A stretch of 13,313 nt of DNA. It comes from a virus. Its lineage: Duplodnaviria; Heunggongvirae; Uroviricota; Caudoviricetes. Every line of letters starts with the position of its first letter. The first letter of the stretch is position 1. A program made the translations under genes and the position numbers. The stretch lies in the IMG/VR virus record IMGVR_UViG_2703718794_000005; one strand, 5' to 3'. Below are positions 1 through 11,852 of this stretch, piece by piece. Below the pieces are notes generated by a model that searched no databases, was not told the DNA's origin, and worked only from the letters and a program-made list of their open reading frames with translations.

Positions 1-160
1 GTTAAGCATCCACAGGCTGGTATCTGCAACCGATTATAACGGATGCTTAACGTAATGCGTGAAGTATGGACATATTTTATCAATTAGTGTTTTTTGCCGT
101 TTCATAATGTTTCAGGTTGTGCGTTATGTTTTTGATTATAAACAGATTTGTGATTTTTCT

Positions 161-1478: not shown

Positions 1479-1530
1479 TTTTTTTCGTGTTTTTTCAGTA
1501 TGCGCATACTGGATAAGTGCACAGATACAA

Positions 1531-1570
1531 CGTGAAACAATGTGCAACAACGTGACACAATCACGAACAA
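1531..1570 (+). repeat. Four tandem 10-bp-phased repeats cGTGAaACAA / tGTGCAACAA / cGTGACACAA / tCACGAACAA
   Basis: Read directly; exact 10-bp periodicity; just downstream of int stop, preceded by perfect 14-bp palindrome AGTATGCGCATACT (1497-1510). Similar phased GTGAC array at the other end of the island (11301-11340). Confidence 0.5.
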
Positions 1571-1666
1571 GAGGCCAAAAAGAATACAGATTTATAAGTT
1601 ACTGATTTTTAATGCTTAGCTGGTTTTTTATACATTAGTGAATTACGCGTTAAAGCGTGCGAAAAA

Positions 1667-1698
1667 AGGCATAAAACAAGATTTTATGCCTTTGTATT
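1667..1698. terminator. Intrinsic terminator candidate (10-bp stem aggcataaaa/ttttatgcct, 5-nt loop, T-rich tail; A-run upstream so possibly bidirectional)
   Basis: Inverted repeat 1667-1676 / 1682-1691 followed by ttgtatt; lies between int and alpA. Confidence 0.55.
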
Positions 1699-1852
1699 GA
1701 TATGAATTTAAATGATTTTATCCTGATTATTCCTCTTTCTGTAAACCATGCGACACCAACATTTGCCAACTCTGAATCATCCTGACACAATCAGACACAT
1801 CCCAACGCAATAGAACACGAAATAACTCTTTAAGAAACGAAAGGGGGCAATA

Positions 1853-2041
1853 GTGTTAAGCACTGATCGGTTTATACGTGAAAAAGAATGCGAAAAGCTA
1901 ACAGGCCTTAGCCGCTCATGCCGCTACCGCCTGGAAAAGGCCGGACAATTCCCATCACGTCGTAAACTTGGTGGGCGTTCTGTTGGCTGGTCTTTATCTG
2001 AGGTTTTGGCCTGGAAGGATAGCTGCAAGGCAGTTCACTAA
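1853..2041 (+). CDS. alpA: AlpA/Vis-family small HTH regulator (prophage regulatory protein / excision-directionality candidate)
   Basis: 62-aa ORF with GTG start 9 nt after aaaggggg SD; motif RKLGGRSVGWSLSEVLAW typical of AlpA-type MerR-like HTH; positioned directly downstream of int as in P4-like elements. Confidence 0.8.
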   Translation: MLSTDRFIREKECEKLTGLSRSCRYRLEKAGQFPSRRKLGGRSVGWSLSEVLAWKDSCKAVH

Positions 2042-2182
2042 AAAGACTGGCGGCACACAGTCGCCACACATCCACTAATACAGAGATATAACTATGAAGA
2101 TTGAATATGCGCCCGAACGTGGGCGGGGATTCGTTCGCCCTGGTGAAACTGAAAAACAACAAAATTGGGGTTTTTCAGGCAT

Positions 2183-2216
2183 AAAAAAAGCGGCCCCGAT
2201 ATGGAGCCGCCTTTCT
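2183..2216 (-). terminator. Candidate terminator for leftward operon (minus-strand stem GCGGC/GCCGC followed by 7 U)
   Basis: Plus strand aaaaaaagcggccccgatatggagccgcc; on minus strand gives hairpin plus TTTTTTT; located in the convergent gap between alpA and the leftward genes. Loop is long (11 nt), so weak. Confidence 0.35.
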
Positions 2217-2284
2217 GAACAATTAACCTGCTGCGCCTTATGTGTATGTGATCCCAAACATAAGCACGGGAATGATAGCCGCTA

Positions 2285-2488
2285 TCAGGCTGGTGGGCAA
2301 TTACCTTGCTTGTTGGGGCCGTATTGTGCTGCCATTTTCATCCGTTCAGAACGTGAATATTTTTTTAGAAACTCATCAAGGACAAAAGCGCATGGAGCGA
2401 ATCTTTCTGATTCATGCTCGAGCGCCATATTTTCGTGCTCTCTGTTCGTTTTTTGCGATGGTGTATTGGTTGATTCTTTATTGGTCAT
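2285..2488 (-). CDS. Hypothetical small protein (67 aa), paralog of 2946-3173
   Basis: ORF with charged, non-repetitive composition; C-terminal block RFAPCAFVLDEFLKKYSRS resembles EKFALEDFVDKYPRR of the 75-aa ORF; start codon preceded by conserved leader element R1a. Confidence 0.5.
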   Translation of the reverse strand: MTNKESTNTPSQKTNREHENMALEHESERFAPCAFVLDEFLKKYSRSERMKMAAQYGPNKQGNCPPA

Positions 2489-2496
2489 TGTGTGTA

Positions 2497-2540
2497 CCTG
2501 TAAAGCAATGCGCCGGAGTTCCTCACGCCACGGCGCTGAT
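2497..2540 (-). promoter_or_regulatory. Conserved 44-nt intercistronic hairpin element R1a
   Basis: cctgtaaagcaatgcgccggagttcctcacgccacggcgctgat; 41/44 identical to R1b (3182-3225) in my by-eye alignment; contains inverted repeat gcgccg..cggcgc; lies between a minus-strand stop codon and the next minus-strand start. Confidence 0.5.
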
Positions 2541-2545
2541 GTTTT

Positions 2546-2650
2546 TTATTCTTTGGGTTCAATACCGCGTTGCTGTAATTCTTTTCGGATTATTCGTTTT
2601 ATCCAAGCAGCTAAAGAGTCATCACCGTCTTGTTGTTGTGCTTTTTCCAT
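2546..2650 (-). CDS. Possible 34-aa ORF (MEKAQQQDGDDSLAAWIKRIIRKELQQRGIEPKE), truncated paralog of the C-terminus of the 3231-3419 protein
   Basis: ATG (revcomp of 2648-2650) preceded by gggaaaag; C-terminus resembles ..AALKREVEYRQRRKAKESE of the 62-aa ORF; not in supplied ORF track (below size cut-off). Confidence 0.25.
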   Translation of the reverse strand: MEKAQQQDGDDSLAAWIKRIIRKELQQRGIEPKE

Positions 2651-2718
2651 CTTTTCCCGTAAGTCAGGATCTAAACGGAACTGGAAAGGAGGATTACCAC
2701 GCCTTTCATTCTTGTGTG

Positions 2719-2768
2719 TTGACACGTCAATTACACCCCATATAATGTGTTTATGTGTATATACACAT
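2719..2768 (+). promoter_or_regulatory. Consensus sigma70 promoter (TTGACA 2719-2724, 16-bp spacer, TATAAT 2741-2746) with 16-bp perfect palindrome ATGTGTATATACACAT (2753-2768) over the predicted +1
   Basis: Read directly from sequence; both hexamers match consensus 6/6; palindrome immediately downstream is operator-like. Confidence 0.6.
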
Positions 2769-2793
2769 TACACACAACTAGCACAAAAAACAA

Positions 2794-2926
2794 CGCCCCG
2801 CAGTGATGGGAACACATACGGGGCGTCTAACCAAACCATTAATTGAGGTAACGATTATGGTTATAAAAGAGCATAGCTTACTCTTTATACACACACAAAC
2901 GCCCCGGAAACGGAATAATCCGTTTC
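2794..2926 (+). ncRNA. Candidate structured leader / small RNA (R2a) transcribed from the 2719-2746 promoter
   Basis: Hairpin cgccccg(2794-2800)..cggggcg(2819-2825), then tctaaccaa, SD+ATGGTT (2857), tatacacacacaaac; all shared with R2b (3543-3650); second hairpin gaaacgga/tccgtttc at 2907-2926. The long plus-strand ORF through here has junk composition, so the transcript is probably non-coding or encodes only a short peptide. Confidence 0.3.
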
Positions 2927-2945
2927 ATAGTTCGGTTTTGTGCAC

Positions 2946-3173
2946 TCATCCTGGCGGTCGGTTTTTGCCGGATTTAAGCCGCCGTGGGTATTTATCGACA
3001 AAATCTTCAAGGGCAAATTTTTCTGGTGGCACTAAGCGCGGCGCTGGTGGTGGTATTTTTGTTCTGGTTAGTTCTTCCTCAAGTCTGGCGCAGGCTTCTG
3101 ACTGCCTTTGCCGGATGATTTCATCATCTTGCGTTTGCGTGTCTTGTATTGGTGATAGTGTGTTGTTGGTCAT
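2946..3173 (-). CDS. Hypothetical small protein (75 aa), paralog of 2285-2488
   Basis: ORF start MTNN.. mirrors MTNK.. of the paralog; both preceded by the R1 element; shared C-terminal motif; protein-like composition. Confidence 0.55.
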   Translation of the reverse strand: MTNNTLSPIQDTQTQDDEIIRQRQSEACARLEEELTRTKIPPPAPRLVPPEKFALEDFVDKYPRRLKSGKNRPPG

Positions 3174-3181
3174 GATACTGC

Positions 3182-3225
3182 CCTGTAAAGCAATGCGCCG
3201 TAGTACCTCACACCACGGCGCTGAT
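3182..3225 (-). promoter_or_regulatory. Conserved 44-nt intercistronic hairpin element R1b
   Basis: cctgtaaagcaatgcgccgtagtacctcacaccacggcgctgat; on the minus-strand RNA forms a ~9-bp stem GCGCCGUGG/CUACGGCGC with GAGG in the loop; sits between stop of 3231-3419 and start of 2946-3173. Confidence 0.5.
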
Positions 3226-3230
3226 AGTGA

Positions 3231-3419
3231 TTATTCTGATTCTTTGGCCTTGCGACGCTGGCGGTATTCAACTTCCCGCTTTAATGCAGCTGTAACAAAC
3301 TGCCCTGTACTTTCGCCGGGCATTTTTACCGCCTCAACATTGTTCATAACTTCATGTGGAACCCTTGCCGCAACTGTTTGTGATTTTGCGTTTACTGCTT
3401 TTGTCGCCATGTTGAGCAC
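3231..3419 (-). CDS. Small DNA-binding regulator candidate (62 aa; possible ribbon-helix-helix type repressor)
   Basis: GTG start 4 nt after gagggg SD (alternative ATG 9 nt downstream); segment QTVAARVPHEVMNNVEAVK..GQFVTAALKREVE fits a beta-strand/helix/helix pattern; gene diverges from an operator array. Confidence 0.55.
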   Translation of the reverse strand: MLNMATKAVNAKSQTVAARVPHEVMNNVEAVKMPGESTGQFVTAALKREVEYRQRRKAKESE

Positions 3420-3460
3420 CCCTCATAAAAAACAAATGCAGTATGCAGGAAAAAAAATAA

Positions 3461-3537
3461 GTGTTCAACACTTGACGTGTTTAACACCTCGATTTAAATT
3501 GGTGTTCAACACCTTATTTAGGCAAGGTGTTGAAACG
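3461..3537. promoter_or_regulatory. Operator array: GTGTTcAACAC (3461-3471), GTGTTtAACAC (3477-3487), GTGTTcAACAC (3502-3512), GTGTTgAAAC (3527-3536), with divergent promoters
   Basis: Three perfect 5+1+5 palindromes plus a half-site variant, read directly; -35-like TTGACG (3472-3477) between O1 and O2 and -10-like TAAATT (3495-3500) for rightward transcription; leftward TTGAAC/CATACT candidate overlapping O1. Confidence 0.6.
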
Positions 3538-3542
3538 ACGAA

Positions 3543-3650
3543 ACCCCGCACTGTAGGAGCAGTAACGGGGCTTCTAACCAACAACGTAAACGAGGAGCCG
3601 TTATGGTTGCCGTAAATCATATACCACACCTTGTACACACACAAACTGCC
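3543..3650 (+). promoter_or_regulatory. Conserved structured leader R2b of the rightward operon
   Basis: Hairpin ccccg(3544-3548)..cgggg(3566-3570) with AGGAG in loop, tctaaccaa, SD gaggag + ATGGTT at 3603, tgtacacacacaaac; patchwise identical to R2a. Confidence 0.4.
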
Positions 3651-3675
3651 TTTGTGTGGCGTTTTCTGGCCCTGA

Positions 3676-4005
3676 GTGCCGGAGAATCTCAAATCATCCA
3701 CGTCACCGCCTGGACGGAACGCGAAGCGCGTAACCGTTGCCCGTCCGGTTGTGTTGCTGTATTTGCCGCCCGTATTCGTCAGGAGGTGCGCCATTATTAA
3801 TCTGTCACTTACTGACCTTAACCGCATTCAGTTTCGTGAGAAATTCACAGGGCAGCTACTGGTCAATGTGGATAAAGGTCGCGTGGTGTGTAATTACCAC
3901 TTACCAGATGAAGCAATTGTCGCCACAAGGGAATCATTACAGGAAATCACAAAACGTGCCGGAATGATTAACACGAATATTCAGGGGATGCTTTATGCAC
4001 AATAA
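3676..4005 (+). CDS. Hypothetical protein; start uncertain
   Basis: C-terminal two thirds (..LTDLNRIQFREKFTGQLLVNVDKGRVVCNYHLPDEAIVATRESLQEITKRAGM..) looks protein-like; N-terminal part from GTG 3676 is Pro/Arg-rich and overlaps alternative ORF 3603-3800 (65 aa, with SD and conserved ATGGTT start). A strong AGGAGG at 3780-3785 precedes an in-frame ATT (3793). Only one of the overlapping frames is likely translated. Confidence 0.4.
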   Translation: MPENLKSSTSPPGRNAKRVTVARPVVLLYLPPVFVRRCAIINLSLTDLNRIQFREKFTGQLLVNVDKGRVVCNYHLPDEAIVATRESLQEITKRAGMINTNIQGMLYAQ

Positions 4006-4255
4006 AACCACACCGGACGCAGCCGCCGAAGCCATCAAAACGCTGATGCACGCGCTGATTGATATTTCTGTTATCGCGGACAGGGCACATAAGCACGCCA
4101 CCAGCGAAACAGAATATACCGGGGCTTTCGTTCCTCACTCACTGGCTGTTATGCAATTTAGTGCTGATATGGCACTGAATGAGGCTAAAACCATCCTGAT
4201 TACTGATTGTGAAAATGGGGGGGGGTTATGCGTGATGATCGTTTTTATTCCCTGA
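3995..4255 (+). CDS. Hypothetical protein (86 aa)
   Basis: ATG overlaps previous stop (ATGCTTTATGCACAATAA); acidic/helical composition; C-terminus runs through a G9 tract (4217-4225) and overlaps next ORF by 28 nt. Confidence 0.5.
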   Translation: MHNKTTPDAAAEAIKTLMHALIDISVIADRAHKHATSETEYTGAFVPHSLAVMQFSADMALNEAKTILITDCENGGGLCVMIVFIP

Positions 4256-4449
4256 AACAAGAATTTTCCGGCGTTCCTGATGATGCGGCTGATGCGCTTT
4301 CGTCAATATCTGAAATTATGCGGGTGGCTTTTTTCTTTCTTTGCACTGATGAGCACAGAGATACAGGGCTAAATATTCTTGATATTGCCGCTAACTATGC
4401 CGATTTCGTGACAGAAGCTGTTTTAAGAAAAACAACGGACGGTAATTAA
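4228..4449 (+). CDS. Hypothetical protein (73 aa); may be fused to the preceding ORF by a frameshift at the G9 tract
   Basis: ATG 4228 directly after G9 run (acts as SD); begins MRDD like the next ORF (MRDI); frame is open from 4213. Confidence 0.5.
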   Translation: MRDDRFYSLKQEFSGVPDDAADALSSISEIMRVAFFFLCTDEHRDTGLNILDIAANYADFVTEAVLRKTTDGN

Positions 4450-4450
4450 T

Positions 4451-4684
4451 ATGCGTGATATTTACCACGAAACAACAGATCGCGTATTTCTTGCACTTTC
4501 TCACAGTGAAAATATGATGGAAATATTGCGCATATGGCTTGAAACACTTGGCGACAATGAACGCGACAAACAAAAATCAAGAATTGCCACGGCATTAATA
4601 ACGCTTCTTGAGCCTGTAATAAATGAGTTGCAGGAAATAGAGACATTGCACGACAGATATAACGAACAGCACACCGGAGAATAA
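4451..4684 (+). CDS. Hypothetical protein (77 aa)
   Basis: ATG 1 nt after previous stop; helical, charged composition; weak similarity to 4228-4449 product. Confidence 0.55.
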   Translation: MRDIYHETTDRVFLALSHSENMMEILRIWLETLGDNERDKQKSRIATALITLLEPVINELQEIETLHDRYNEQHTGE

Positions 4685-4689
4685 AAATA

Positions 4690-4989
4690 ATGAAACTTAA
4701 ATATTCTGGCTTAACTGCCAGTGGCAACACTCACCCTAAATTTACGCGCGGTGATATTTACCGCGACCAGTACGGCGGCACGGTAATGATTAAGGGCGTG
4801 GCGGGACGGTGCGTAACTTACCGCCGTGAAGGTTACGAATATGATTGCGTGATGCCTGTTTATCAGTTCCGGCGTGATTTTTCTCTGGTACAGACCGCGC
4901 CGCATAACGTGCCCACCAGCAACGCCAGGGCACGGGCAAACATCCAGAAGCTGAAAACCATGATTAACGGATTCAGGGGTAAAAAATGA
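4690..4989 (+). CDS. Hypothetical protein (99 aa), translationally coupled to the replication ATPase
   Basis: Stop overlaps start of next gene (ATGA at 4986-4989); protein-like composition. Confidence 0.6.
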   Translation: MKLKYSGLTASGNTHPKFTRGDIYRDQYGGTVMIKGVAGRCVTYRREGYEYDCVMPVYQFRRDFSLVQTAPHNVPTSNARARANIQKLKTMINGFRGKK

Positions 4990-6395
4990 AACTGGCACTG
5001 AACGTAAAACGATTACCGAAAGATAAATACACCGATGCGATTATTTTTGCGGGTATTGATGCTCACTCATTCGCAGAGCATTACATCATTGCACAGGCCA
5101 AAAAAGCAGGCGATCCAGTCCCTCCCGTTTATCTGGGGCGTTATCAGTTAAGCGAACTGGATAACCTCCAGATTGTTGATGATGGGCGATACAGGGCGAC
5201 GGTGATACGCGCCGGAAATATTGAAGAGCCGCAGCTGTTAACCATCGCCACGAAACTGGCGATCGCCGGAGTCCAGGAGGCGCGGCTACTTTCTGAAAAT
5301 TTCGAATTGCTGGAGGAATGGAGCGACCAGCTTCCACGGCTTAGGGAGGCATGGGAACGCGGGGAAAGCCTGGTCATGAAAAAAATTCCCCAGCGAAAAA
5401 CCACGCTACCGATGAGCGTTGGATCTACCGGATACGACACACAGCTTGATTACGTGGTAAAGGGGATTATTCCGGCATCGTCGCTTTGCAGCATATACGG
5501 GGCGAGCGGTTCCTATAAATCATTCCTTGCCGGATCGTGGGCGTGTCACGTTTCCACGGGCCGCCAGTGGGGAGGCCGCAGGGTGGCGCATGGCGCTGTT
5601 CTCTATGTGGTTGGTGAAGGCGGTATCGGCGTTCCGCGTCGTGTAAAAGCCTGGGAGGTTGTGCACGGTGAGCAGGTGAAAAATCTGTATCTGGTAAACC
5701 GTCCCATCTTTCCGGCGGTCCCGCTTGATGTTGATGAAATGGTTATCGCTGCCAGTCAGGTGGAGAGGGAAACGGGTAAACCTGTACGCATGATTATTCT
5801 GGATACGCTGGCGCGTTGCTTTGGTGGGAATGATGAAAATGATTCCCGTGATATGGGGGCGTTTATCCGTGGTTGTGACGAACTGAAACGGCGCACAGGG
5901 GCCACGGTGCTGGTGGTTCACCATTCCGGCAAGGATGAGACGAAAGGCGCGCGCGGTTCCAGTGCATTTCGTGCTTCGCTGGATGCTGAATACCGGATAC
6001 GCAGAGAGGACGCAGGCAGCGAAGCGCTGGTTATCTCATGCACCAAAATGAAGGACGCGGAGGAACTCAAAGAAGCCGCATATGACTTACGCGTGGTGGA
6101 GCTTTTTACCGACGCTGACGGGGAGTTAATCACGTCGCTGGTGGTGGTGGATAAGCCGCGCCCTCCCGTTGAACTGGAGCGCATCGAGGAGGCAGGGAAC
6201 AAGACGGAGAATCACGCCGCGCTATGGCAGTGCATCAGAACACGAACAGCACACGGGGAGGCGTGCACTATCGCCCTTCTCCGCGACGATATGAAAAAGC
6301 TGGGGTATGAGATGAAGCACTTCCGGCGCTGGCTGTACAAGCTGGAAAATGATGGCGTAATCGTTATTGATGGTGATGACGTGCGCCCGCTGTAA
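4986..6395 (+). CDS. Replication initiator / helicase-type RecA-fold ATPase (RepA/AAA_25-like)
   Basis: 469 aa; Walker A-like GASGSYKS, Walker B-like MIILDTLARC.GGNDEND, VLVVHHSGKD motif typical of RepA-like/DnaB-family ATPases; followed immediately by an iteron array. No primase (TOPRIM/zinc) motif noticed. Confidence 0.85.
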   Translation: MKLALNVKRLPKDKYTDAIIFAGIDAHSFAEHYIIAQAKKAGDPVPPVYLGRYQLSELDNLQIVDDGRYRATVIRAGNIEEPQLLTIATKLAIAGVQEARLLSENFELLEEWSDQLPRLREAWERGESLVMKKIPQRKTTLPMSVGSTGYDTQLDYVVKGIIPASSLCSIYGASGSYKSFLAGSWACHVSTGRQWGGRRVAHGAVLYVVGEGGIGVPRRVKAWEVVHGEQVKNLYLVNRPIFPAVPLDVDEMVIAASQVERETGKPVRMIILDTLARCFGGNDENDSRDMGAFIRGCDELKRRTGATVLVVHHSGKDETKGARGSSAFRASLDAEYRIRREDAGSEALVISCTKMKDAEELKEAAYDLRVVELFTDADGELITSLVVVDKPRPPVELERIEEAGNKTENHAALWQCIRTRTAHGEACTIALLRDDMKKLGYEMKHFRRWLYKLENDGVIVIDGDDVRPL

Positions 6396-6599
6396 AAAGT
6401 GGGGAGTAAAAGTGGGGAGAGCGGGGAATTTAACAAAATTGAAACATAATTACCCACTTTCCCACCTGTATATACCCAAAAAAGTGGGGAGTAAAAAACA
6501 TATTGAAAAACATAACGTTAGAATCACAAAAAAAAGAGGTGTGGAGACGGTGGGTAATTTCAAAAAGTGGGGAGCAAAAGTGGGGAGTAGTGGGGAATG
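6396..6599. repeat. Iteron-type replication origin: AGTGGGGAG x >=6 direct copies plus one inverted partial copy, AT-rich spacers
   Basis: Copies at 6398-6406, 6411-6419, 6420-6428 (degenerate), 6483-6491, 6566-6574, 6579-6587, 6589-6597; inverted cccacttt at 6453-6460; A/T-rich stretches between clusters; directly downstream of rep gene stop (6393-6395). Confidence 0.7.
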
Positions 6600-6848
6600 A
6601 ACAGAAAAACCAGAGATAAGACAGCGCCAAAATATAAAGCGTTAGACATGACAGAGCACGCTTTAAAGGTGGCAATCAGAACGATAGACCGCCACGCGGG
6701 GGAAGGATACGCGAAAGAACATCCCGACCTGATAAGCGCATTCATGACCACAGCAGCGGCAAACTTTGCCACGCTGACAGAACGTGAGATTGCCGAAGCG
6801 GAACAGGTAACAACCATCAACGTTAAAACCGGAGAGGTGGAATCATGA
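6597..6848 (+). CDS. Hypothetical protein (83 aa)
   Basis: ATG 6597 uses last iteron (GGGGA) as SD; stop overlaps SSB start (ATGA); charged helical composition. Confidence 0.55.
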   Translation: MNRKTRDKTAPKYKALDMTEHALKVAIRTIDRHAGEGYAKEHPDLISAFMTTAAANFATLTEREIAEAEQVTTINVKTGEVES

Positions 6849-7267
6849 CAGCACAGATAGCCGCTTACGGGCGGCTGGTGAACGACCCGCAGGTAAAACA
6901 GACCAGCAAGGGCACACCGATGACGCTGGTTCGTATGGCGGTATCGCTGCCATGCAGCCAGGCACAGGACGGACAGGCGACGTTATGGCTGTCCGTCATC
7001 GCATTTGGCAAGCAGGCCGACTTCCTGGCTAAACATCAAAAAGGCGACGTTGCCAGCGTATCCGGCACGATGCAGGTAAGCCAGTGGACAGGCCAGAACG
7101 GCGAAACGCGGCAGGGCTGGCAGGTTATCGCAGACAGCGTAATCAGTGCGAGAACGGCGCGACCGGGCGGCAAAAAAGGCCAGCAGGGGCAGGCTACTGA
7201 CGCACTGAACAGGGCAAAACAACAGGCGGGTAACGATGATCCGTACGGGGATAACATACCGTTTTAA
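6845..7267 (+). CDS. ssb: Single-stranded DNA-binding protein (SSB-like, OB fold with acidic DIPF-type tail)
   Basis: 140 aa; N-terminal OB-fold-like region (AYGRLVNDPQVKQTSKGTPMTLVRMAV..), Gly/Gln-rich linker, C-terminal DDPYGDNIPF resembling the SSB C-terminal DDDIPF tail. Confidence 0.8.
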   Translation: MTAQIAAYGRLVNDPQVKQTSKGTPMTLVRMAVSLPCSQAQDGQATLWLSVIAFGKQADFLAKHQKGDVASVSGTMQVSQWTGQNGETRQGWQVIADSVISARTARPGGKKGQQGQATDALNRAKQQAGNDDPYGDNIPF

Positions 7268-7283
7268 GCAACGAGTGACAGAA

Positions 7284-7305
7284 GCCGGAGCAATCCGGCT
7301 TTTTT
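7284..7305 (+). terminator. Intrinsic terminator (gccgga-gcaa-tccggc + T6)
   Basis: 6-bp GC stem, 4-nt loop, 6 T; 17 nt after SSB stop. Nearly identical hairpin recurs at 9725-9747. Confidence 0.7.
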
Positions 7306-7354
7306 ACGGGTCCTCCTGGCGGGGTGGGCCTGAACACGGGGCGGAGGGGCGCGG
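7306..7354 (+). other. Degenerate cos-like element (cosQ-like ACGGGTCCTCCTGG; cosN analogue GGGCGGAGGGGC at 7339-7350)
   Basis: Aligns with cos1 (9748-9794): terminator hairpin + ACGGGTCCT..GG + ACGGGGCGG; 12-mer differs from GGGCGGCGACCT at 4 positions. Confidence 0.4.
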
Positions 7355-7487
7355 AAAAAAGCGCATTTTTGTGGTTTTATCGTCATCATCATCATGAGCG
7401 TAATTTATTGTTTTTAATTGTTTTGATGCAAAAAAGATGATGGTTGTGGTTAATTTTCGTTCGACATCTTTGCAGGCAGATAAAAAA

Positions 7488-7523
7488 GCCCGATAAGGTC
7501 AGAGGAAACCTATCGGGCTTTTG
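7488..7523. terminator. Hairpin with flanking A-run and T-run (gcccgata..tatcgggc), possible bidirectional terminator
   Basis: 8-bp stem 7488-7495 / 7511-7518, 15-nt loop, aaaaaa upstream and ttttg downstream. Confidence 0.35.
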
Positions 7524-7600
7524 CATATGAGGTTTTTTTGGTGCACTGACACACATGATCGGGATAATCATTTCATAATTTGCAACACAACTCAACATCA

Positions 7601-7661
7601 TTGCACAAAATGCAATCATGATTATAATCATAACTGGATGAACATCCAGTTATGATTTTTT
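7601..7661 (+). promoter_or_regulatory. Candidate promoter of the head operon (TTGCAC 7601-7606, 16 bp, TATAAT 7623-7628) embedded in nested palindromes (7618-7631 and 7628-7655) followed by T6
   Basis: Palindrome atgattataatcat covers the -10; perfect 13-bp-arm palindrome tcataactggatg-aa-catccagttatga spans predicted +1; SD agagga 10 nt before ATG 7685. Confidence 0.45.
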
Positions 7662-7684
7662 AAGTCAAAGAGGAATTTCTGACT

Positions 7685-7891
7685 ATGGCAGAAGAGAAAA
7701 AAGGCGGGGTGACCGTGTACATAAGCCCCGACATCGTGGAGGCGCTCAAGGAACGCCACCAGCAGAACGTAAAAGCAGGCATCGCGGCAGGACTTGATCC
7801 GCTGGCGATGGTTGAGCCGTCAACAGGCTGGCAGGTACGCGCCTATTTACGCGCGGCGCTGGGCATGAATCAGACGCATGGAGGTGAATAA
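7685..7891 (+). CDS. Hypothetical protein (68 aa), translationally coupled to major capsid gene
   Basis: SD agagga; stop TAA overlaps ATG of next gene (TAATG, 7889-7893). Confidence 0.55.
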   Translation: MAEEKKGGVTVYISPDIVEALKERHQQNVKAGIAAGLDPLAMVEPSTGWQVRAYLRAALGMNQTHGGE

Positions 7892-8946
7892 TGGCAGGCA
7901 AAGCAACGGCACTTAACACTAACCAGCTTTTCGCGTACCTGAATCGCGGGGATATTGCGGAATTTAAATTCAGTCCGCTGTTTACCACGCTGTTTTTCCC
8001 GAACGTGGCGACATTCAACACCCAAAACATCATGCTGGACACCCTGGACATTGAAGAGGTTACGATGTCGGCGTTTTGTTCGCCTATGGTGGGTAGTCAG
8101 GTCCAGCGCGATAAAGGGTACGAAACCAGCACGATTAAACCTGGATACATGAAGCCGAAGCACGAAATCGATCCAACGAAAACCATCATGCGCATGGCCG
8201 GAGAAGATCCGGCACAGCTTAACGACCCTACCTATCGCCGTATGCGCCTGATTACTGGCAATATGCGCCGCCAGGTAAACGCCATAAAAGCGCGCGTGGA
8301 ATGGCTGGCGGTAAATGCGGTAACGACCGGAAAAAACATCATTGAGGGCGAAGGCATAGAGCGCTATGAAATCGACTGGAAGATACCGGAAAAAAACATC
8401 ATAGAGCAGGCCAAAGGCCGTAAATGGTCAGAGCAGGACAAAGAAACTCACGATCCAATCTATGATATTGAGCTTTATGCGGATCAGGGCAATTGCCCCG
8501 CAAACGTCATGATTATGGGCGCTGAGGTATGGCGCACGTTACGCAGCTTTAAAAAATTCCGCGAACTGTACGATCTTTCCCGTGGTTCAGAATCCGCCGC
8601 AGAACTGGCCTGCAAAAACCTGGGCGAAGTGGTGAGCTTTAAAGGCTATCTGGGCGATATTGCCCTTATCGTCTATTCCGGCAAATACACTGACAGCGAC
8701 GGCACCGAAAAATATTTCCTTGAGCCTGATTTGCTGGTCCTGGGCAACACCAACAATAAAGGGCTGGTGGCCTATGGTGCGATTATGGAACAGGAAGCGG
8801 TAAGAACGGGCGCAACGCAAAACATGTACTACCCGAAAAACTGGATTGAGGACGGCGATCCGGCGATTGAGTACGTGCAGACACACAGCGCACCGCAGCC
8901 GGTACCGGCAGATATTCGCAAATTTGTTACCGTCAAAATTGGTTAA
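7891..8946 (+). CDS. Major capsid protein, lambda gpE family
   Basis: 351 aa; blocks FKFSPLF..LFF, KPGYMKPKHE, DPTYRRMRLI, HDPIYDIELYA, RSFKKF, RGSESAAE, LGEVVSFKGYLGDIALIVYSGKY, FLEPDLLVLGNT, YPKNWIEDGDPA, SAP..AD..KFVTV align with lambda E protein as I recall it. Confidence 0.9.
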   Translation: MAGKATALNTNQLFAYLNRGDIAEFKFSPLFTTLFFPNVATFNTQNIMLDTLDIEEVTMSAFCSPMVGSQVQRDKGYETSTIKPGYMKPKHEIDPTKTIMRMAGEDPAQLNDPTYRRMRLITGNMRRQVNAIKARVEWLAVNAVTTGKNIIEGEGIERYEIDWKIPEKNIIEQAKGRKWSEQDKETHDPIYDIELYADQGNCPANVMIMGAEVWRTLRSFKKFRELYDLSRGSESAAELACKNLGEVVSFKGYLGDIALIVYSGKYTDSDGTEKYFLEPDLLVLGNTNNKGLVAYGAIMEQEAVRTGATQNMYYPKNWIEDGDPAIEYVQTHSAPQPVPADIRKFVTVKIG

Positions 8947-8957
8947 CGGGGGATTCT

Positions 8958-9293
8958 ATGGACACTCCATACATTGAGTTATTCGCAGGCAGTCAGCAGG
9001 TCGCCACGACGCTGGTACATTTTGCCGCTGATGCTGGCGTTATTCAGGAATTTACCCCGCTGATGCTGGCGGACAATGGCGAGTTTAAGCCGTGGGATGG
9101 TCAGGAATCTGGCAAGGCTGTTTATCTGACTTCGTACCCCGTGGACACGTCGACGCAGAAATCAGCACAGTGTTACAAGACGGGGATATTTAATATCGCT
9201 GCCGTAAACTGGCCTGAGAGCGCCGACACTGACGCGAAAAAATGCGCTGCCTTTGCGGGGTCTGGCGTATCCGTTCAGCCGCTGGCCCGATAA
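8958..9293 (+). CDS. Head decoration protein, lambda gpD-like
   Basis: 111 aa; TPLMLAD..WDG..YKTGIF..WPESADTDAKKCAAFAGSGVS matches remembered lambda D ([36 protein letters not shown]). Gene order E then D is reversed relative to lambda. Confidence 0.8.
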   Translation: MDTPYIELFAGSQQVATTLVHFAADAGVIQEFTPLMLADNGEFKPWDGQESGKAVYLTSYPVDTSTQKSAQCYKTGIFNIAAVNWPESADTDAKKCAAFAGSGVSVQPLAR

Positions 9294-9305
9294 GCAGGGG
9301 GAACG

Positions 9306-9719
9306 ATGGCAACGAATGAAAGCATCATGACGCTACCGCTGGCGAGTAAATTTAAAGCCGAAGCGCGGGCAATGGCTGACAGAGGGTTATCAACCTACGA
9401 GGCCATATATCAACTTAACAAACTGGAAGAGCAGGACAAGCCGCGCGCTGATGCGATTATGGCGCTTGATGAATCTGGCGACTATCAGCCGCTGTTACGT
9501 GCAATGGCAAACGTGCCTTGTATCGATGTTGGTACGGCTAAAAGCATCCTTAGCATGACCATAGAGCAGGAACGTCCGAAGGTTGCGCCGGAGCTTACCG
9601 CAGCCTTTGAAAACTTTATGGACATGCACAGCCCGCAAGCCGTATCAGCTGGCATGGCATACGATGGCAGAAACCCGGGCGATGACGGCGACATCGATCG
9701 CATACTGAAAACCATCTGA
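9306..9719 (+). CDS. Hypothetical protein (137 aa) within head module
   Basis: ORF with SD gggggaacg; acidic C-terminus; no recognisable homolog from memory. Confidence 0.6.
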   Translation: MATNESIMTLPLASKFKAEARAMADRGLSTYEAIYQLNKLEEQDKPRADAIMALDESGDYQPLLRAMANVPCIDVGTAKSILSMTIEQERPKVAPELTAAFENFMDMHSPQAVSAGMAYDGRNPGDDGDIDRILKTI

Positions 9720-9724
9720 GACAG

Positions 9725-9747
9725 GCCGGAGAAATCCGGCTTTTTTT
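9725..9747 (+). terminator. Intrinsic terminator (gccgga-gaaa-tccggc + T7)
   Basis: 6-bp GC stem, GAAA tetraloop, 7 T; 6 nt after stop of 9306-9719. Confidence 0.75.
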
Positions 9748-9830
9748 ACGGGTCCTTTCCGGCATATGGACCCGTTACGGGGCGGCGACCTCGCAGTTTT
9801 TCGCTATTTATGAGCCTTTTTCGGGTGCTG
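9748..9830 (+). other. cos site 1, lambda-type: cosQ-like ACGGGTCCTTTCCGG (9748-9762), cosN GGGCGGCGACCT (9780-9791), partial cosB-like (TTTTCGCTATTTATGA)
   Basis: Near-identical to the remembered lambda cos junction ACGGGTCCTTTCCGGTGATCCGACAGGTTACG|GGGCGGCGACCT|CGCGGGTTTTCGCTATTTATGAAAATTTTCCGG; precedes the Nu1-like gene as in lambda. Confidence 0.8.
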
Positions 9831-9924
9831 GTGGTGGTTTTGTTGTTCGCTCTATCTCTATGAATAAAAAGGGAAAGATAAAAACAATACACCAACCTGA
9901 AACATTACTTAAGTGGGGATATTG

Positions 9925-10467
9925 ATGAAATCGCACCTGATGAACAAAAAAAACATGGCGCAAAGCTGCCGTGTAAGTGCGACAGCGTTCGACAAGTGGC
10001 GAGTGACTCCCGTTGAACGTAAAGGACGCGAGGCTTTTTACGATGTTGCCAGCGTGATAGACAATCGGGTAAGCAATGCAATTAACCAGGTTACAAACGA
10101 CAAAGGCGAGATTGATGATGATGAACTCTTACGAGTCAGGATCAGATTACTGACCGCCCAGGCGGAGGCGCAGGAACTTAAAAACGAGCGCGATCGCGGT
10201 GACGTAATTGATACAGAGTTTTGCATGTACGCGCTTTCAAAACTGGCGAGCCAGATTTCTTCAATCATGGACAGCCTACCGCTTACGATGCAAAGGAGCT
10301 TCCCACAGATTACCCCCGCCATGCTGGATGGGCTTAAAAGGGAAGTGGTTAAAGCCTGTAATGCCAGTGCCAGAGTTGCCGACAACCTTCCGCAGATACT
10401 GGCTGATTACTTGAAAGAAACTACCGGAAACGTACCGGAAAAGTTGCTACAGAAGAAACGTGAGTAA
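9925..10467 (+). CDS. Small terminase subunit, lambda Nu1-like (TerS; could act as a packaging-redirecting TerS homolog)
   Basis: Central block LTAQAEAQELKNERDRGDVIDTEFCMYALSKLASQISSIMDSLPLTMQRSFPQ..LKREVVKACN aligns with lambda Nu1 (LTRAQADAQELKNARDSAEVVETAFCTFVLSRIAGEIASILDGLPLSVQRRFPE..LKRDIIKAMN). ATG 9925 has SD gtgggga; ORF track starts at GTG 9913; ATG 9940 also possible. Confidence 0.85.
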   Translation: MKSHLMNKKNMAQSCRVSATAFDKWRVTPVERKGREAFYDVASVIDNRVSNAINQVTNDKGEIDDDELLRVRIRLLTAQAEAQELKNERDRGDVIDTEFCMYALSKLASQISSIMDSLPLTMQRSFPQITPAMLDGLKREVVKACNASARVADNLPQILADYLKETTGNVPEKLLQKKRE

Positions 10468-10495
10468 CCGCAGCACAATTATTGAACAAAAATGA

Positions 10496-10557
10496 GAAAG
10501 GATCTGATAATGGCATTTTCTGGCTAAAATGCCTCGTGTCAGATCCTTTCTTTTTTT
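10496..10557 (+). terminator. Strong intrinsic terminator after terS (12-bp outer stem gaaaggatctga/tcagatcctttc enclosing an 8-bp inner hairpin, then T7)
   Basis: Read directly; on the minus strand the same inverted repeat corresponds in position to the lambda cosB-region inverted repeat (GAAAGGAAACGACAG..CTGTCGTTTCCTTTC). Confidence 0.7.
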
Positions 10558-10700
10558 AATGTTTTCATTGTTAAACAGTCTGTTACAGAGAAGAAGAACG
10601 GATCTGACTTTTGCCGGAAAATTTTCATAAACAGATAAAAACTGCGAGGTCGCCGCCCCGTAACGGGCCATAATTCCAGGAAGGACCCGACGACACCAGA
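10558..10700 (-). other. cos site 2, lambda-type, inverted relative to cos1: cosN GGGCGGCGACCT on minus strand (10647-10658), cosQ-like GGGTCCTTCCTGG, extended cosB-like region
   Basis: Reverse complement reads ..GGGTCCTTCCTGGAATTATGGCCCGTTACGGGGCGGCGACCTCGCAGTTTTTATCTGTTTATGAAAATTTTCCGG..GTTCTTCTTC..AAAGAAAGGA.., matching remembered lambda left end; 31-bp stretch 10637-10667 is the exact reverse complement of 9771-9801. Confidence 0.75.
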
Positions 10701-10722
10701 CTATCAGAACGATGGGGGCACA

Positions 10723-11004
10723 ATGACAGAAGCCGAACTACTGCGATTAATCCGTCGCGTTGCCGGAATCAGCCAGCAGGCTGACGAACAGGCCACGCAG
10801 CCGGACAGCGTGACCGCCGAAAATTATGCGCGTGTGGTTGCTGAGGTGATGCGCCGTGATGGTATTGAGCTTAACGGCGTGGATATGCGCAACATACGAA
10901 CCAGAGTCCTTGAGTTGCTGGCATACCGTCGCCGCGTGGAGATGTATCGGGAGAAGGAGAAAATCACGTATCACTGGAAGAAGCCGGAGCGGTTACGGCG
11001 GTAA
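10723..11004 (+). CDS. Hypothetical protein (93 aa)
   Basis: ATG after SD gatgggggc; Arg-rich basic C-terminus; no homolog recognised. Confidence 0.55.
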   Translation: MTEAELLRLIRRVAGISQQADEQATQPDSVTAENYARVVAEVMRRDGIELNGVDMRNIRTRVLELLAYRRRVEMYREKEKITYHWKKPERLRR

Positions 11005-11018
11005 CTTGTTGATTAAAA

Positions 11019-11093
11019 GGCGGCTCAATTCTGAGCTGGGTAGCTGACGGCGGTAACTGTTTGATATTCCCGATAACGCAAAATTGCGCTGGC
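11019..11093 (+). repeat. ~75-bp direct repeat, copy 1 (contains near-palindrome ctcaattctgag and palindrome gcgcaaaattgcgc)
   Basis: Closely matches 11206-11276 by eye; partial third copy at 10995-11015. Confidence 0.5.
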
Positions 11094-11205
11094 TACATCC
11101 CTCACATCTGAGGACTGTTAACCAGCAGGCCGGAATATATTCACAAACTACGAAATTTTCGTAGTTTAATTACTCGCCAGTTTATCGTTAACTAGTTGAT
11201 ATTTT

Positions 11206-11276
11206 CGGAAACCTCAATTTGAGGAAGTCGGCGCGGTAACTGTTTTATATTCCCGATAGCGCAAAAATGCGCGGTC
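11206..11276 (+). repeat. ~75-bp direct repeat, copy 2
   Basis: cggaaacctcaatttgaggaagtcggcgcggtaactgttttatattcccgatagcgcaaaaatgcgcggtc aligned to copy 1 by eye. Confidence 0.5.
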
Positions 11277-11300
11277 GGGCAGAATGAGCACCACCTCAAT

Positions 11301-11340
11301 CGTGACGGAGAGTGACAACCAGTGACACACCGTGACAAAA
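11301..11340 (+). repeat. Four 10-bp-phased GTGAC repeats (cGTGACggag aGTGACaacc aGTGACacac cGTGACaaaa)
   Basis: Read directly; exact 10-bp register; resembles the array at 1531-1570 near the other island end. Confidence 0.45.
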
Positions 11341-11389
11341 AGACGGTTTAACCGTTCATTAAAAATCGACGTGATTTTGTGCTTTCCGG

Positions 11390-11413
11390 ATGACGTGGCC
11401 AACGTCATTTTTT
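11390..11413 (+). terminator. Intrinsic terminator candidate (atgacgt-ggcca-acgtcat + T6)
   Basis: 7-bp stem, 5-nt loop, 6 T. Confidence 0.5.
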
Positions 11414-11704
11414 AGCGAAAAATTCTGATTAAGGTCACTGGCTGAATGGTCATAATGACCACGCAGACCATCAAGGCAACCATAGCGATCATCGTTACGG
11501 TTGGAGCTTTTCCGCCATTGGTGGAAAAGGTGCACATCTGGATCATCATTACGGTGATCAAGGGTATGTAAAACCCACCAGCCTGATTAAATGTTAACCG
11601 GAAAAAAATCCGGTAGCCCCGTTATGGGGATCCCCATATCGACATTAACGCCCCTCATGAATTGGTGCGCTTCCCCCTGGAAAGATTACCCGCCTGTATA
11701 TTTC

Positions 11705-11775
11705 TTGTGTCTATTTGTTCCACGTTGTTTCATACAGTGCACCGAACGGTGTAGTTAATGGTGTAGTCAATTTGC
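11705..11775. repeat. attR: right copy of island-bounding direct repeat (perfect core 11747-11767)
   Basis: cggtgtagttaatggtgtagt identical to 202-222; upstream arm ttgttccacgttgtttcatacagtgcaccgaa resembles the attL upstream arm. Confidence 0.75.
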
Positions 11776-11852
11776 GATTTTTGGCACTTTTTTAATGATA
11801 ATTGTTTAATTAAATCAATGACTTGGCCTGGTGTAGTGATAAAAGGACATAT

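What the first reader, a model, noticed from the sequence alone, without database searches (positions are those of the whole stretch)
6396..6599. Iteron origin downstream of the Rep ATPase gene; last iteron doubles as ribosome-binding site
At least six direct copies of AGTGGGGAG plus an inverted partial copy, with AT-rich spacers, start 3 nt after the rep stop codon. This is the classic arrangement of satellite and plasmid origins. The final copy (6589-6597) supplies the GGGGA Shine-Dalgarno for the next gene, which could couple Rep occupancy to downstream translation or transcription.
Basis: partly seen in the sequence, partly recalled or inferred. Interest (0 to 1): 0.5.

Follow-up and report, generated by a model that had tools for sequence, protein, structure and literature searches.

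The report
Replication origin of a phage satellite
The repeats are almost certainly the replication origin of an E. coli phage satellite (an EcCICFT073-type PICI), read by the winged-helix tail of the helicase gene just upstream; this kind of origin is already known, so the finding is real but fairly ordinary.

Summary
AGTGGGGAG occurs five times exactly in 6396-6599, against 0.07 expected in the whole window. There is also one 8/9 copy, three degenerate direct copies and two inverted half-copies, with AT-rich spacers of 80-88% AT.

The window is an 11.8-kb phage-inducible chromosomal island at the published EcCICFT073 attachment site (roxA/ycfD-phoQ). In PICIs the origin lies immediately 3' of rep, as two iteron sets flanking an AT-rich region.

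Comparative evidence strongly supports a Rep-cognate origin. In 79 of 86 Rep homologues across Enterobacterales the same architecture follows the stop codon. The fourth base of the GTG-N-GG core tracks one Rep residue (H445 here): H goes with G, N with A, S with C and K with G, in 76 of 77 scorable loci. That residue caps the recognition helix of a predicted C-terminal winged-helix domain. CFT073 itself carries a different rep with different iterons at the same position.

The ribosome-binding claim needs correction. The penultimate copy is the credible Shine-Dalgarno (8-9 nt spacer). The last copy ends on the A of the ATG. Coupling of Rep occupancy to expression is untested.

Novelty: a new member of a known kind.

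The parts
68..11854 (+). Whole element: an EcCICFT073-type phage-inducible chromosomal island (PICI), bounded by the direct repeat GGACATATTT at 68-77 and 11845-11854.
   Evidence: The att core was found at both ends and equals the published EcCICFT073 att core at ycfD-phoQ. The gene content is int, DUF4222, Rep, SSB, capsid E, decoration D and a Nu1-like TerS, with phoQ outside. Synteny matches CFT073.
4986..6395 (+). rep: a 469-aa RepA-family (RecA-fold, AAA_25) helicase-initiator.
   Evidence: Pfam AAA_25 at E 1.3e-43 over residues 151-318. RefSeq names it 'helicase RepA family protein'. Weak similarity to RSF1010 RepA 1G8Y, E 0.008. Matches phrog_2850.
6198..6392 (+). Rep C-terminal winged-helix domain (about residues 405-469). 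The recognition helix is 446-455.
   Evidence: The AF2 model of residues 398-469 has pLDDT 87.4 and topology H-H-H-beta-beta. Foldseek matches DtxR/IdeR, Fur, PcaR, LexA, histone H1 and the MCM C-terminal WH domain, with probability 0.96-0.99 and TM 0.6-0.7.
6315..6323 (+). Codons K444-H445-F446, at the N-cap of the recognition helix. They are the predicted specificity determinant for bases 4-6 of the iteron core.
   Evidence: Residue 445 against base 4 of GTG-N-GG: H with G in 13/13 loci, N with A in 27/27, S with C in 7/7, K with G in 29/30. In E. coli L086, H445N goes with GTGAGG iterons.
6398..6428 (+). Left iteron set: AGTGGGGAG at 6398 and 6411 (13-nt spacing), plus the degenerate AGCGGGGAA at 6420.
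6429..6452 (.). AT-rich spacer 1 (88% AT), a zone of low duplex stability.
6453..6465 (-). Two inverted half-iterons: CCCAC-TTT-CCCAC, which reads GTGGG-AAA-GTGGG on the minus strand.
   Evidence: They are conserved and change in concert with the direct copies (CTCACTTTCTCAC in A-type origins).
6466..6475 (.). Conserved core CTGTATATAC between the divergent iterons. It is a candidate nucleation or melting site.
   Evidence: TGTATA is invariant across the 10 E. coli origins, and a tgtata/catata core recurs in other genera. The functional role is inferred.
6483..6491 (+). Central direct iteron AGTGGGGAG.
6492..6537 (.). AT-rich spacer 2 (80% AT), the second low-stability zone. It is the probable DNA-unwinding element between the two iteron sets.
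   Evidence: It matches the published PICI origin layout.
6538..6557 (+). Two degenerate direct copies: GGTGTGGAG (6538-6546) and GGTGGGTAA (6549-6557).
6566..6597 (+). Right iteron set: AGTGGGGAG at 6566 and 6579, and AGTGGGGAA at 6589. The last A of the final copy is the A of the ATG.
6581..6588 (+). Probable Shine-Dalgarno of the next gene (UGGGGAGU), inside the penultimate iteron.
   Evidence: Pairing with the 16S 3' end is -7.5 to -8.0 kcal/mol with an 8-9 nt spacer. The last copy gives -4.5 to -5.5 with a 1-nt spacer.
6597..6848 (+). Downstream 83-aa gene of unknown function (phrog_1231), followed by ssb (6845-7267).
   Evidence: PGAP calls the same start. Matches phrog_1231. It is 84% identical to the CFT073 counterpart from residue 14 onward.

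Best explanation
Positions 6396-6597 are the vegetative replication origin of an EcCICFT073-type PICI.

Proposed mechanism. After the island is induced, the Rep encoded just upstream binds the iterons through its C-terminal winged-helix domain. Rep has an N-terminal domain, a RecA-fold RepA-type hexameric helicase and this winged-helix domain. The iterons are AAAAGTGGGGAG-type repeats: three on the left, two inverted plus one direct around a conserved CTGTATATAC core, and about five on the right. Residue H445, at the start of the recognition helix, reads the fourth base (G) of the GTG-G-GG core. Clustered binding on both sides of the AT-rich spacers melts the DNA and lets Rep load itself as the replicative helicase, without DnaA boxes. 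The ssb gene lies two genes downstream.

The origin lies inside the rightward operon. The last iterons therefore also appear in the mRNA, where the penultimate copy serves as the Shine-Dalgarno of the next gene.

Shown here:
- the repeats and their statistics;
- the PICI identity of the element;
- conservation of the origin architecture;
- covariation between Rep and the iterons;
- the winged-helix prediction.

Inferred, not shown: Rep binding, DNA melting, helicase loading and Rep-dependent replication.
For: 1. Context. The att core GGACATATTT flanks the island at 68 and 11845, which is the published EcCICFT073 site. Gene order matches CFT073.

2. Published rule. In PICIs the origin lies immediately 3' of rep, as two iteron sets flanking an AT-rich region. 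Deleting the EcCICFT073 ori or rep impairs plasmid maintenance (PMC6092414). SaPI Reps bind iterons through a C-terminal winged helix (PMC9371898).

3. Conservation. The cognate core occurs 6.6 times per 260 nt after the rep stop, against 0.26 elsewhere. 79 of 86 loci have at least 3 copies. The same order of elements is seen from E. coli to Xenorhabdus, Pectobacterium, Morganella and Kosakonia.

4. Covariation. Rep residue 445 against core base 4 is H/G in 13/13 loci, N/A in 27/27, S/C in 7/7 and K/G in 29/30. All copies in a locus change together, including the inverted ones.

5. Independence from overall Rep relatedness.
- The L086 Rep tail differs from the window's tail at four positions, including H445N, and all its iterons are GTGAGG.
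- L029 versus L040/L041 are near-identical in the N-terminus and helicase, but differ in the tail and in their iterons.

6. The C-terminal domain is a confident winged helix, with residue 445 at the N-cap of helix 3.

7. Module swap. CFT073 has an unrelated primase-type rep and CTGTCTACC iterons between the same flanking genes.

8. There is no promoter, terminator, Rfam family, DnaA box or IHF site in the region.

9. A 17-kb circular Klebsiella 'plasmid' is a related island with the S-type Rep and GTGCGGCA origin.
Against: - There is no experimental evidence for this Rep/origin pair. Origin function was tested only for the non-homologous EcCICFT073 module.
- Covariation shows that Rep's tail and the repeats co-evolve. 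It does not show that binding initiates replication.
- Covariation partly reflects co-inheritance of tail and origin as one recombination module, so the counts are not independent events.
- The iterons on the two sides of the large AT-rich spacer point the same way, unlike the opposed arrangement reported for SaPIs. Only the small central pair is divergent.
- The AT-rich spacers are not the least stable DNA in the window.
- The whole-protein model is poor in the helicase region (pLDDT 68.8), and Foldseek E-values for the 72-aa domain are weak (0.03-0.1).
Confidence: 0.85

Rival explanations
1. The repeats are Rep-binding sites with a mainly regulatory role. Rep bound at 6566-6597 would act as a roadblock or gate for transcription into the downstream hyp-ssb-capsid genes, or would titrate Rep. 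The true origin would lie elsewhere.
For: The array lies within a unidirectional operon, with no promoter or terminator of its own. In most E. coli relatives examined the last iteron abuts the start codon of the next gene. The Rep/iteron covariation fits any Rep-binding function equally well.
Against: The position and layout match the published PICI origin rule. No other iteron cluster exists in the island: GTGGG cores outside 6396-6599 are scattered. In other genera the array is not adjacent to the next gene's start. A regulatory role could also coexist with origin function rather than replace it.
Confidence: 0.07
2. The repeats act at the RNA level. They would be an array of Shine-Dalgarno-like purine motifs, serving as ribosome standby or pausing sites, or a structured leader controlling translation of the downstream gene.
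For: AAAGUGGGGAG pairs with the 16S 3' end at about -7 to -8 kcal/mol. The ribosome-binding site of the next gene is built from iteron sequence in the window and in E. coli relatives.
Against: S-type relatives use GTGCGGCA iterons, which are not Shine-Dalgarno-like, in the same architecture. Inverted copies are conserved and co-vary, which is not expected of Shine-Dalgarno-like motifs read from a single RNA strand. The base change tracks a residue of a DNA-binding helix. There is no Rfam hit.
Confidence: 0.03
3. The repeats bind a protein other than Rep, for example as a partition centromere, a packaging site or a host-factor array. Their linkage to rep would be only positional.
For: No binding data exist. 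Short repeat arrays also serve as centromeres or terminase-binding sites in other elements (general knowledge).
Against: The covariation is with a residue of Rep itself, across different N-terminal architectures and genera. cos/terS-type repeats lie elsewhere in the window, at about 11.0-11.26 kb. There are no DnaA or IHF consensus sites in the region.
Confidence: 0.03

Closest known systems
EcCICFT073 pri-rep-ori replicon (Gram-negative PICI; Fillol-Salom et al. 2018, PMC6092414)
   Same: It uses the same att site and the same island synteny. The origin sits in the same slot, between rep and the small hyp-ssb genes. The layout is the same: iteron sets around an AT-rich region. The first ~126 residues of Rep are 45% identical.
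   Different: The CFT073 Rep is a 584-aa primase-family protein, unrelated beyond the N-terminal domain. Its iterons are CTGTCTACC/GGTAGACAG. The next gene has its own Shine-Dalgarno about 45 nt past the last iteron. Origin function was tested experimentally only for that module.
EcCI11128, a PICI catalogued in the same paper (AP010960 2855234-2864550)
   Same: It carries an origin 98.8% identical to window 6380-6620, next to a RepA-family helicase (hit H25; coordinates).
   Different: It is integrated at a different att site (yejM-luxR). I found no text describing or testing its origin.
SaPI origins and Rep / PriRep self-loading helicases (PMC9371898 and the references cited there)
   Same: The origin lies immediately 3' of rep. 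It holds 6-12 short iterons around an AT-rich centre. Rep combines a helicase with a C-terminal winged-helix domain that reads the iterons, and no DnaA boxes or separate loader are involved.
   Different: SaPI Reps are placed among AAA+ helicases (the SF3/MCM groups) and translocate 3'-5'. This Rep has a RecA-fold AAA_25 core like RSF1010 RepA. Most iterons here are co-oriented on both sides of the large spacer.
RSF1010 (IncQ) RepA helicase, PDB 1G8Y
   Same: It is the only solved structure detectable by sequence for the ATPase core (E 0.008, residues 153-323).
   Different: By established knowledge, which I did not test here, IncQ RepA has no winged-helix tail and does not recognise iterons, and a separate RepC does that job.
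PLE RepA / ori of Vibrio cholerae satellites (PMC7145576)
   Same: It is a satellite-encoded initiator that binds iterons in a non-coding region required for satellite replication.
   Different: It is a RepA_N-family initiator without helicase activity, and it depends on phage helicases. It is an unrelated protein with a different iteron structure.

Membership tests
PICI/SaPI-type replication origin | It resides in a phage-inducible chromosomal island, with an integrase, a specific att site, a satellite-sized genome and hijacking genes. | tested here: met
   The att core lies at 68 and 11845 and equals the published EcCICFT073 core. int, capsid E, decoration D and a Nu1-like TerS are present in an 11.8-kb island.
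PICI/SaPI-type replication origin | It lies immediately 3' of the replication initiator gene. | tested here: met
   The first iteron starts 2 nt after the rep stop. The same is true in 79 of 86 homologous loci.
PICI/SaPI-type replication origin | Two sets of short iterons flank an AT-rich region. | tested here: met
   The left set is at 6398-6428 and the right set at 6538-6597. The AT-rich spacers are 6429-6452 (88% AT) and 6492-6537 (80% AT).
PICI/SaPI-type replication origin | Iterons point in opposite directions on the two sides of the AT-rich region (reported for SaPIs). | tested here: inconclusive
   Only the central pair is divergent: CCCAC x2 at 6453-6465 against the direct copy at 6483, around CTGTATATAC. 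The outer sets are co-oriented.
PICI/SaPI-type replication origin | The initiator combines a helicase with a C-terminal winged-helix domain that specifies the iteron. | tested here: met
   AAA_25 helicase core. A winged-helix model with pLDDT 87.4 and WH fold matches. Residue 445 co-varies with iteron base 4 in 76 of 77 scorable loci. Physical binding was not tested.
PICI/SaPI-type replication origin | rep plus ori drive autonomous replication, and deleting the origin abolishes it. | not testable with these tools
   Only indirect support exists: a related island with the same Rep/origin type is deposited as a 16,971-bp circular molecule.
Classical iteron plasmids (pSC101, R6K, RK2, F, P1; Rep_3-type initiators) | A Rep_3 / WH1-WH2 initiator with no helicase activity. 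| tested here: not met
   Pfam finds only AAA_25 in Rep.
Classical iteron plasmids (pSC101, R6K, RK2, F, P1; Rep_3-type initiators) | DnaA boxes and IHF sites lie next to iterons of about 17-22 bp. | tested here: not met
   No DnaA-box or IHF match (up to 1 mismatch) lies in 6396-6599. The conserved repeat unit is about 12 nt, at 9-13 nt spacing.
P4 satellite ori/crr with the alpha primase-helicase | An alpha-type primase-helicase initiator, with two separated sets of binding repeats (ori and crr). | tested here: not met
   Rep has no primase domain. A single compact array abuts rep. PMC6092414 also separates E. coli PICIs from P4.

The most novel reading that the evidence does not exclude
The terminal iterons may be dual-use in the E. 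coli lineage. As DNA they would be Rep sites. As mRNA they would be the ribosome-binding site and the first codon of the next gene. Rep loading at the origin would then gate transcription and translation of the downstream hyp-ssb-capsid genes, tying structural-gene expression to the onset of replication. A related, better supported novelty is that a single N-cap residue (H/N/S/K445) sets one iteron base. That would give a simple, re-programmable specificity code for orthogonal satellite replicons.
Probability: 0.15. Interest if true: 0.5.

Novelty: new member of a known kind. Interest (0 to 1): 0.33.

Why it matters
The result fixes the origin and the probable DNA-recognition determinant of a widespread satellite replicon. 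The rep region matches 1,759 of 5,426 complete E. coli genomes, and this origin type matches 373.

The Rep/iteron covariation gives a directly testable prediction. A single H445N change should switch origin preference from GTGGGG to GTGAGG. Such a switch would be useful for building orthogonal PICI-based delivery vectors and for typing satellite replicons.

The work also shows that helicase, winged helix and origin move between PICIs as one cassette.

It does not overturn anything. It extends the PICI origin rule to an RSF1010 RepA-like helicase family.

Tried and rejected
- Rfam at a permissive threshold gave only two chance-level hits, Y RNA and a lncRNA, both far below their gathering scores.
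- The sigma-70 promoter and intrinsic terminator scan found nothing in the repeat region.
- DnaA-box and IHF consensus searches found no site within 6396-6599.
- A full-text search for AGTGGGGAG returned only unrelated eukaryotic and aptamer papers.
- A literature search for PICIs with iterons and helicase found no description of this replicon type.
- The fold search with the whole-Rep model was uninformative: weak Rad51/RadA and T7 gp4 hits at E above 0.01. I therefore modelled the C-terminal domain on its own.
- Iteron classes as strict incompatibility groups: rejected. Two islands with the same GTGAGG type coexist in one genome, for example Xenorhabdus sp. TCT-1 (L007 and L011) and X. bakwenae (L012 and L015).
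- The exact iteron inside rep (5566-5574) as a functional site: probably a coding coincidence. It encodes Q-W-G-G with W195 invariant, and it could not change to the A-type core without creating a stop codon.
- ORFs overlapping the array (6367-6600 on +, 6430-6675 on -) as genes: rejected. RefSeq annotates none in the 99.9%-identical record. Origin alignments show indels that are not multiples of three, and conservation is confined to the iterons.

Full report
**Observation**

Window 6396-6599 was read directly.
- Exact AGTGGGGAG occurs at 6398, 6411, 6483, 6566 and 6579, plus once inside the rep ORF at 5566. That is 6 matches in the window against 0.07 expected, and none of 200 dinucleotide-preserving shuffles reached 6.
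- Three degenerate direct copies lie at 6420, 6538 and 6549.
- Two inverted half-copies (CCCAC at 6453 and 6461) complete the array.
- Counting the GTGGG core on both strands, 9 of the window's 31 occurrences fall in these 204 nt. About 0.48 would be expected (binomial p about 7e-10).
- The two spacers are 88% AT (6429-6452) and 80% AT (6492-6537), against 51% for the window. They coincide with local minima of duplex stability, although they are not the least stable DNA in the window.

Three details need correcting: there are five exact copies, two inverted copies, and the array starts 2 nt after the stop codon.

**What the element is**

The upstream gene (4986-6395) is a 469-aa protein with a strong AAA_25 domain (E 1.3e-43). 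RefSeq calls it 'helicase RepA family protein'. Its only detectable solved relative is the RSF1010 RepA hexameric helicase, and that match is weak (E 0.008).

The window carries, in order:
- a tyrosine integrase;
- small regulatory genes;
- DUF4222;
- rep;
- the repeat array;
- an 83-aa gene;
- ssb;
- a lambda-E-type capsid gene;
- a D-type decoration gene;
- a Nu1-like small terminase;
- chromosomal phoQ, outside the island.

The 10-bp repeat GGACATATTT lies at 68-77 and 11845-11854. Fillol-Salom et al. list exactly this att core for EcCICFT073 at ycfD-phoQ.

The CFT073 genome shows the same synteny at the same site. The window is therefore an 11.8-kb EcCICFT073-type phage-inducible chromosomal island.

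**What is published about such islands**

PMC6092414 states that the region immediately 3' of the replication initiator gene is the origin in PICIs. [quoted passage not shown] For EcCICFT073, plasmids lacking rep or ori lose maintenance at the restrictive temperature.

For SaPIs, PMC9371898 summarises that Rep is a self-loading helicase. Its C-terminal winged-helix domain recognises 6-12 short iterons immediately downstream of rep, around an AT-rich centre.

**Test 1: conservation**

A scan of one genome per species returned 80 loci encoding Rep relatives (52-73% identity), from Citrobacter, Xenorhabdus, Pantoea, Kosakonia, Pectobacterium, Serratia, Morganella and others. I added nine divergent E. 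coli loci.

In nearly all of them the stop codon is followed by the same order of parts:
- 2-3 tandem direct repeats;
- a spacer of about 25 nt;
- an inverted copy (attCCCCACttt);
- a conserved tgTATAta core;
- one direct copy;
- an AT-rich stretch of about 50 nt;
- 3-4 direct copies.

The cognate core occurs 6.6 times per 260 nt after the stop, against 0.26 per 260 nt elsewhere in the loci. 79 of 86 loci have at least three copies.

In an alignment of ten E. coli origins the invariant columns are the AAAAGTG heads of the iterons, CACTTT, TGTATA and a GAAACA motif. The spacers drift and carry indels. That pattern fits protein-binding DNA, not coding sequence.

**Test 2: covariation with Rep**

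The iteron core differs between lineages but is uniform within a locus, inverted copies included:
- GTGGGG in the window and in Pantoea;
- GTGAGG in Xenorhabdus and some E. coli;
- GTGCGGCA in Kosakonia, Phytobacter, Enterobacter and Klebsiella;
- GTGGGGGA in Pectobacterium, Serratia and Morganella.

The last ~70 residues of Rep contain a conserved motif, K-X-F-x-R-W-L-x-K-L. Residue X (H445 in the window) tracks the fourth base of GTG-N-GG:

| Residue X | Base 4 | Loci |
|---|---|---|
| H | G | 13 of 13 |
| N | A | 27 of 27 |
| S | C | 7 of 7 |
| K | G | 29 of 30 |

Pooled core counts tell the same story: 117 G against 12 other bases for H, 235 A against 3 for N, and 36 C against 1 for S.

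The association is not just phylogenetic inertia.
- The E. coli L086 Rep tail differs from the window's tail at four positions, including H445N, and every iteron there is GTGAGG.
- L029 (GTGGGG) and L040/L041 (GTGCGG) share near-identical N-terminal and helicase regions. They differ in this tail and in their iterons.
- In alignments and by Rep length, the H, N and S classes each occur with more than one Rep N-terminal or length class.
- Where F446 is L or M, the sixth base becomes variable (L087, L089, L090 and L092).

One caveat applies. Tail and origin may travel together as a recombination unit, so the counts are loci, not independent events. Even so, such linkage is itself what a cognate pair predicts.

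**Test 3: structure**

The whole-protein AF2 model is mediocre (pLDDT 68.8), but it is confident at both ends.

Residues 398-469 modelled alone reach pLDDT 87.4. The elements are helix 408-422, helix 429-438, helix 446-455 and a beta hairpin at 459-468.

Foldseek matches winged-helix DNA-binding domains:
- the targets are DtxR/IdeR, Fur, PcaR, LexA, linker histone H1 and the MCM C-terminal WH domain;
- probability is 0.96-0.99 and TM 0.6-0.7;
- rmsd is typically 2.5-3 Å over about 63-70 residues;
- E-values are weak because the domain is small.

K444-H445 sit at the N-cap of the third helix, the recognition helix. That is a plausible position for base contact; the contact itself is inferred.

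**Test 4: module swap**

CFT073 carries a 584-aa primase-family Rep between the same DUF4222 and hyp-ssb genes. Its origin is built from CTGTCTACC/GGTAGACAG repeats.
- The two Reps share only their first ~126 residues, at 45% identity.
- The downstream 83-aa proteins are 84% identical from residue 14 onward.

The exchanged cassette is therefore helicase + winged helix + origin + the first ~13 codons of the next gene.

An origin 98.8% identical to the window's lies in the catalogued PICI EcCI11128, at another att site.

True phages hold only helicase-core relatives (up to 40% identity, without the tail; one 54% hit is a Salmonella chromosomal contig, not a phage).

A 16,971-bp circular Klebsiella 'plasmid' is in fact a capsid-encoding island of this kind. 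It has an S-type Rep and a GTGCGGCA origin, which is weak natural support for episomal replication.

**Other readings**

The region has no sigma-70 promoter match, no terminator, no Rfam family above chance, no DnaA box and no IHF site.

An RNA-level or Shine-Dalgarno-array reading fails for three reasons. GTGCGGCA iterons are not Shine-Dalgarno-like. Inverted copies are conserved. The variable base follows a residue of a DNA-binding helix.

A purely regulatory Rep-binding array cannot be excluded. It is less economical than the origin reading, and it could coexist with it.

**The ribosome-binding claim**

PGAP and the ORF scan agree on ATG 6597 as the start. Homology to the CFT073 protein begins upstream of the next in-frame ATG.

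| Copy | Position of the G-rich stretch | Distance to ATG | Pairing with 16S 3' end |
|---|---|---|---|
| Final copy | GGGG 6592-6595 | 1 nt | -4.5 to -5.5 kcal/mol |
| Penultimate copy | UGGGGAGU 6581-6588 | 8-9 nt | -7.5 to -8.0 kcal/mol |

They are comparable with other genes of the island.

In E. coli relatives the site is again built from terminal iteron sequence, for example GAGGTGA at a 3-4 nt spacer. In CFT073 and in the GTGCGGCA lineages the next gene has a separate canonical Shine-Dalgarno beyond the array.

So iteron sequence is co-opted as the ribosome-binding site here. This looks like genome compaction in one lineage rather than a conserved control device.

Rep binds duplex DNA and cannot occlude an mRNA site. 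A transcriptional roadblock remains possible but untested.

**Verdict**

The repeats are real and far beyond chance. They are, with about 0.85 confidence, the Rep-cognate origin of a Gram-negative PICI.

The kind is known, and a near-identical origin sits in a catalogued PICI. The added value here has three parts:
- assignment of the origin to an RSF1010 RepA-like (RecA-fold) helicase-winged-helix initiator family;
- the detailed architecture, with a divergent iteron pair around CTGTATATAC;
- a one-residue/one-base specificity correlation that can be tested directly.

Interest is modest.

Noticed in passing
L003:4250-4470 (Xenorhabdus beddingii): A second complete origin-like array lies directly after the first. 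It has the same architecture but GTGGGG/ATGGGG cores, whereas the first array is GTGAGG and matches the adjacent N-type Rep. This may be tandem origins of different specificity or a recombination scar.
   Followed up: partly
L091:1855-2010 (E. coli L7_E1373_ETEC): A second, partial iteron array (CCTCAC-ttt...tatatata...aaaaagtgagt...GTGAGG) follows the first origin, within a 686-nt gap before the next annotated gene.
   Followed up: no
window 4986-5365 (Rep residues 1-126): The N-terminal domain of Rep is 45% identical to the N-terminus of the otherwise unrelated EcCICFT073 primase-type Rep. It is predicted as a confident alpha/beta domain (pLDDT about 73-92). Other genera replace it with a different short domain or a long primase-like extension. 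Its function is unknown.
   Followed up: partly
window 5566-5574: An exact AGTGGGGAG copy lies inside the rep ORF, encoding Q194-W195-G196-G197. W195 is invariant among homologues, so this is probably a coding coincidence rather than an extra iteron.
   Followed up: partly
window 203-226 and 11748-11759: GGTGTAGTTAAT occurs as a tandem pair just upstream of the int start codon, and once more about 90 nt before the right att core. These may be integrase arm-type binding sites.
   Followed up: no
window 10996-11260: Repeats of about 25 nt (CGGTAACTGTTTGATATTCCCGATA-like) lie at about 11049 and 11232, with a weaker copy at about 10998. Three perfect IHF-consensus matches on the minus strand (11002, 11054, 11189) fall in the same stretch: two overlap these repeat copies and the third lies between them. 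This may be the island's cos/terminase-binding region, just after the last island ORF (10723-11004), about 0.5 kb downstream of the Nu1-like gene.
   Followed up: no
window 4217-4225: A G9 homopolymer lies 2 nt upstream of the ATG at 4228 and inside the overlapping ORF 3995-4255. It is a potential slippage or phase-variation tract.
   Followed up: no
L093 (CP018459.1, Klebsiella pneumoniae pKp_Goe_795-4, 16,971 bp, circular): This record is deposited as a plasmid. It encodes an integrase, a Rep of this family, a capsid, a head-tail adaptor, terminase subunits and a gene annotated as a tail tape-measure protein. It therefore looks like a capsid-forming PICI captured as a circular episome.
   Followed up: partly
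L092:1812 (E. coli FORC_041): Where the window has the ATG of the 83-aa gene, this relative has ATA, which PGAP still uses as the start. An in-frame ATG lies three codons downstream.
   Followed up: no
L084/L085 last iteron (aligned to window 6589-6597): These two relatives have H-type Rep and GTGGGG origins, yet their final copy next to the ATG is GTGAGG. The last copy may be under a different, ribosome-binding-related constraint.
   Followed up: no
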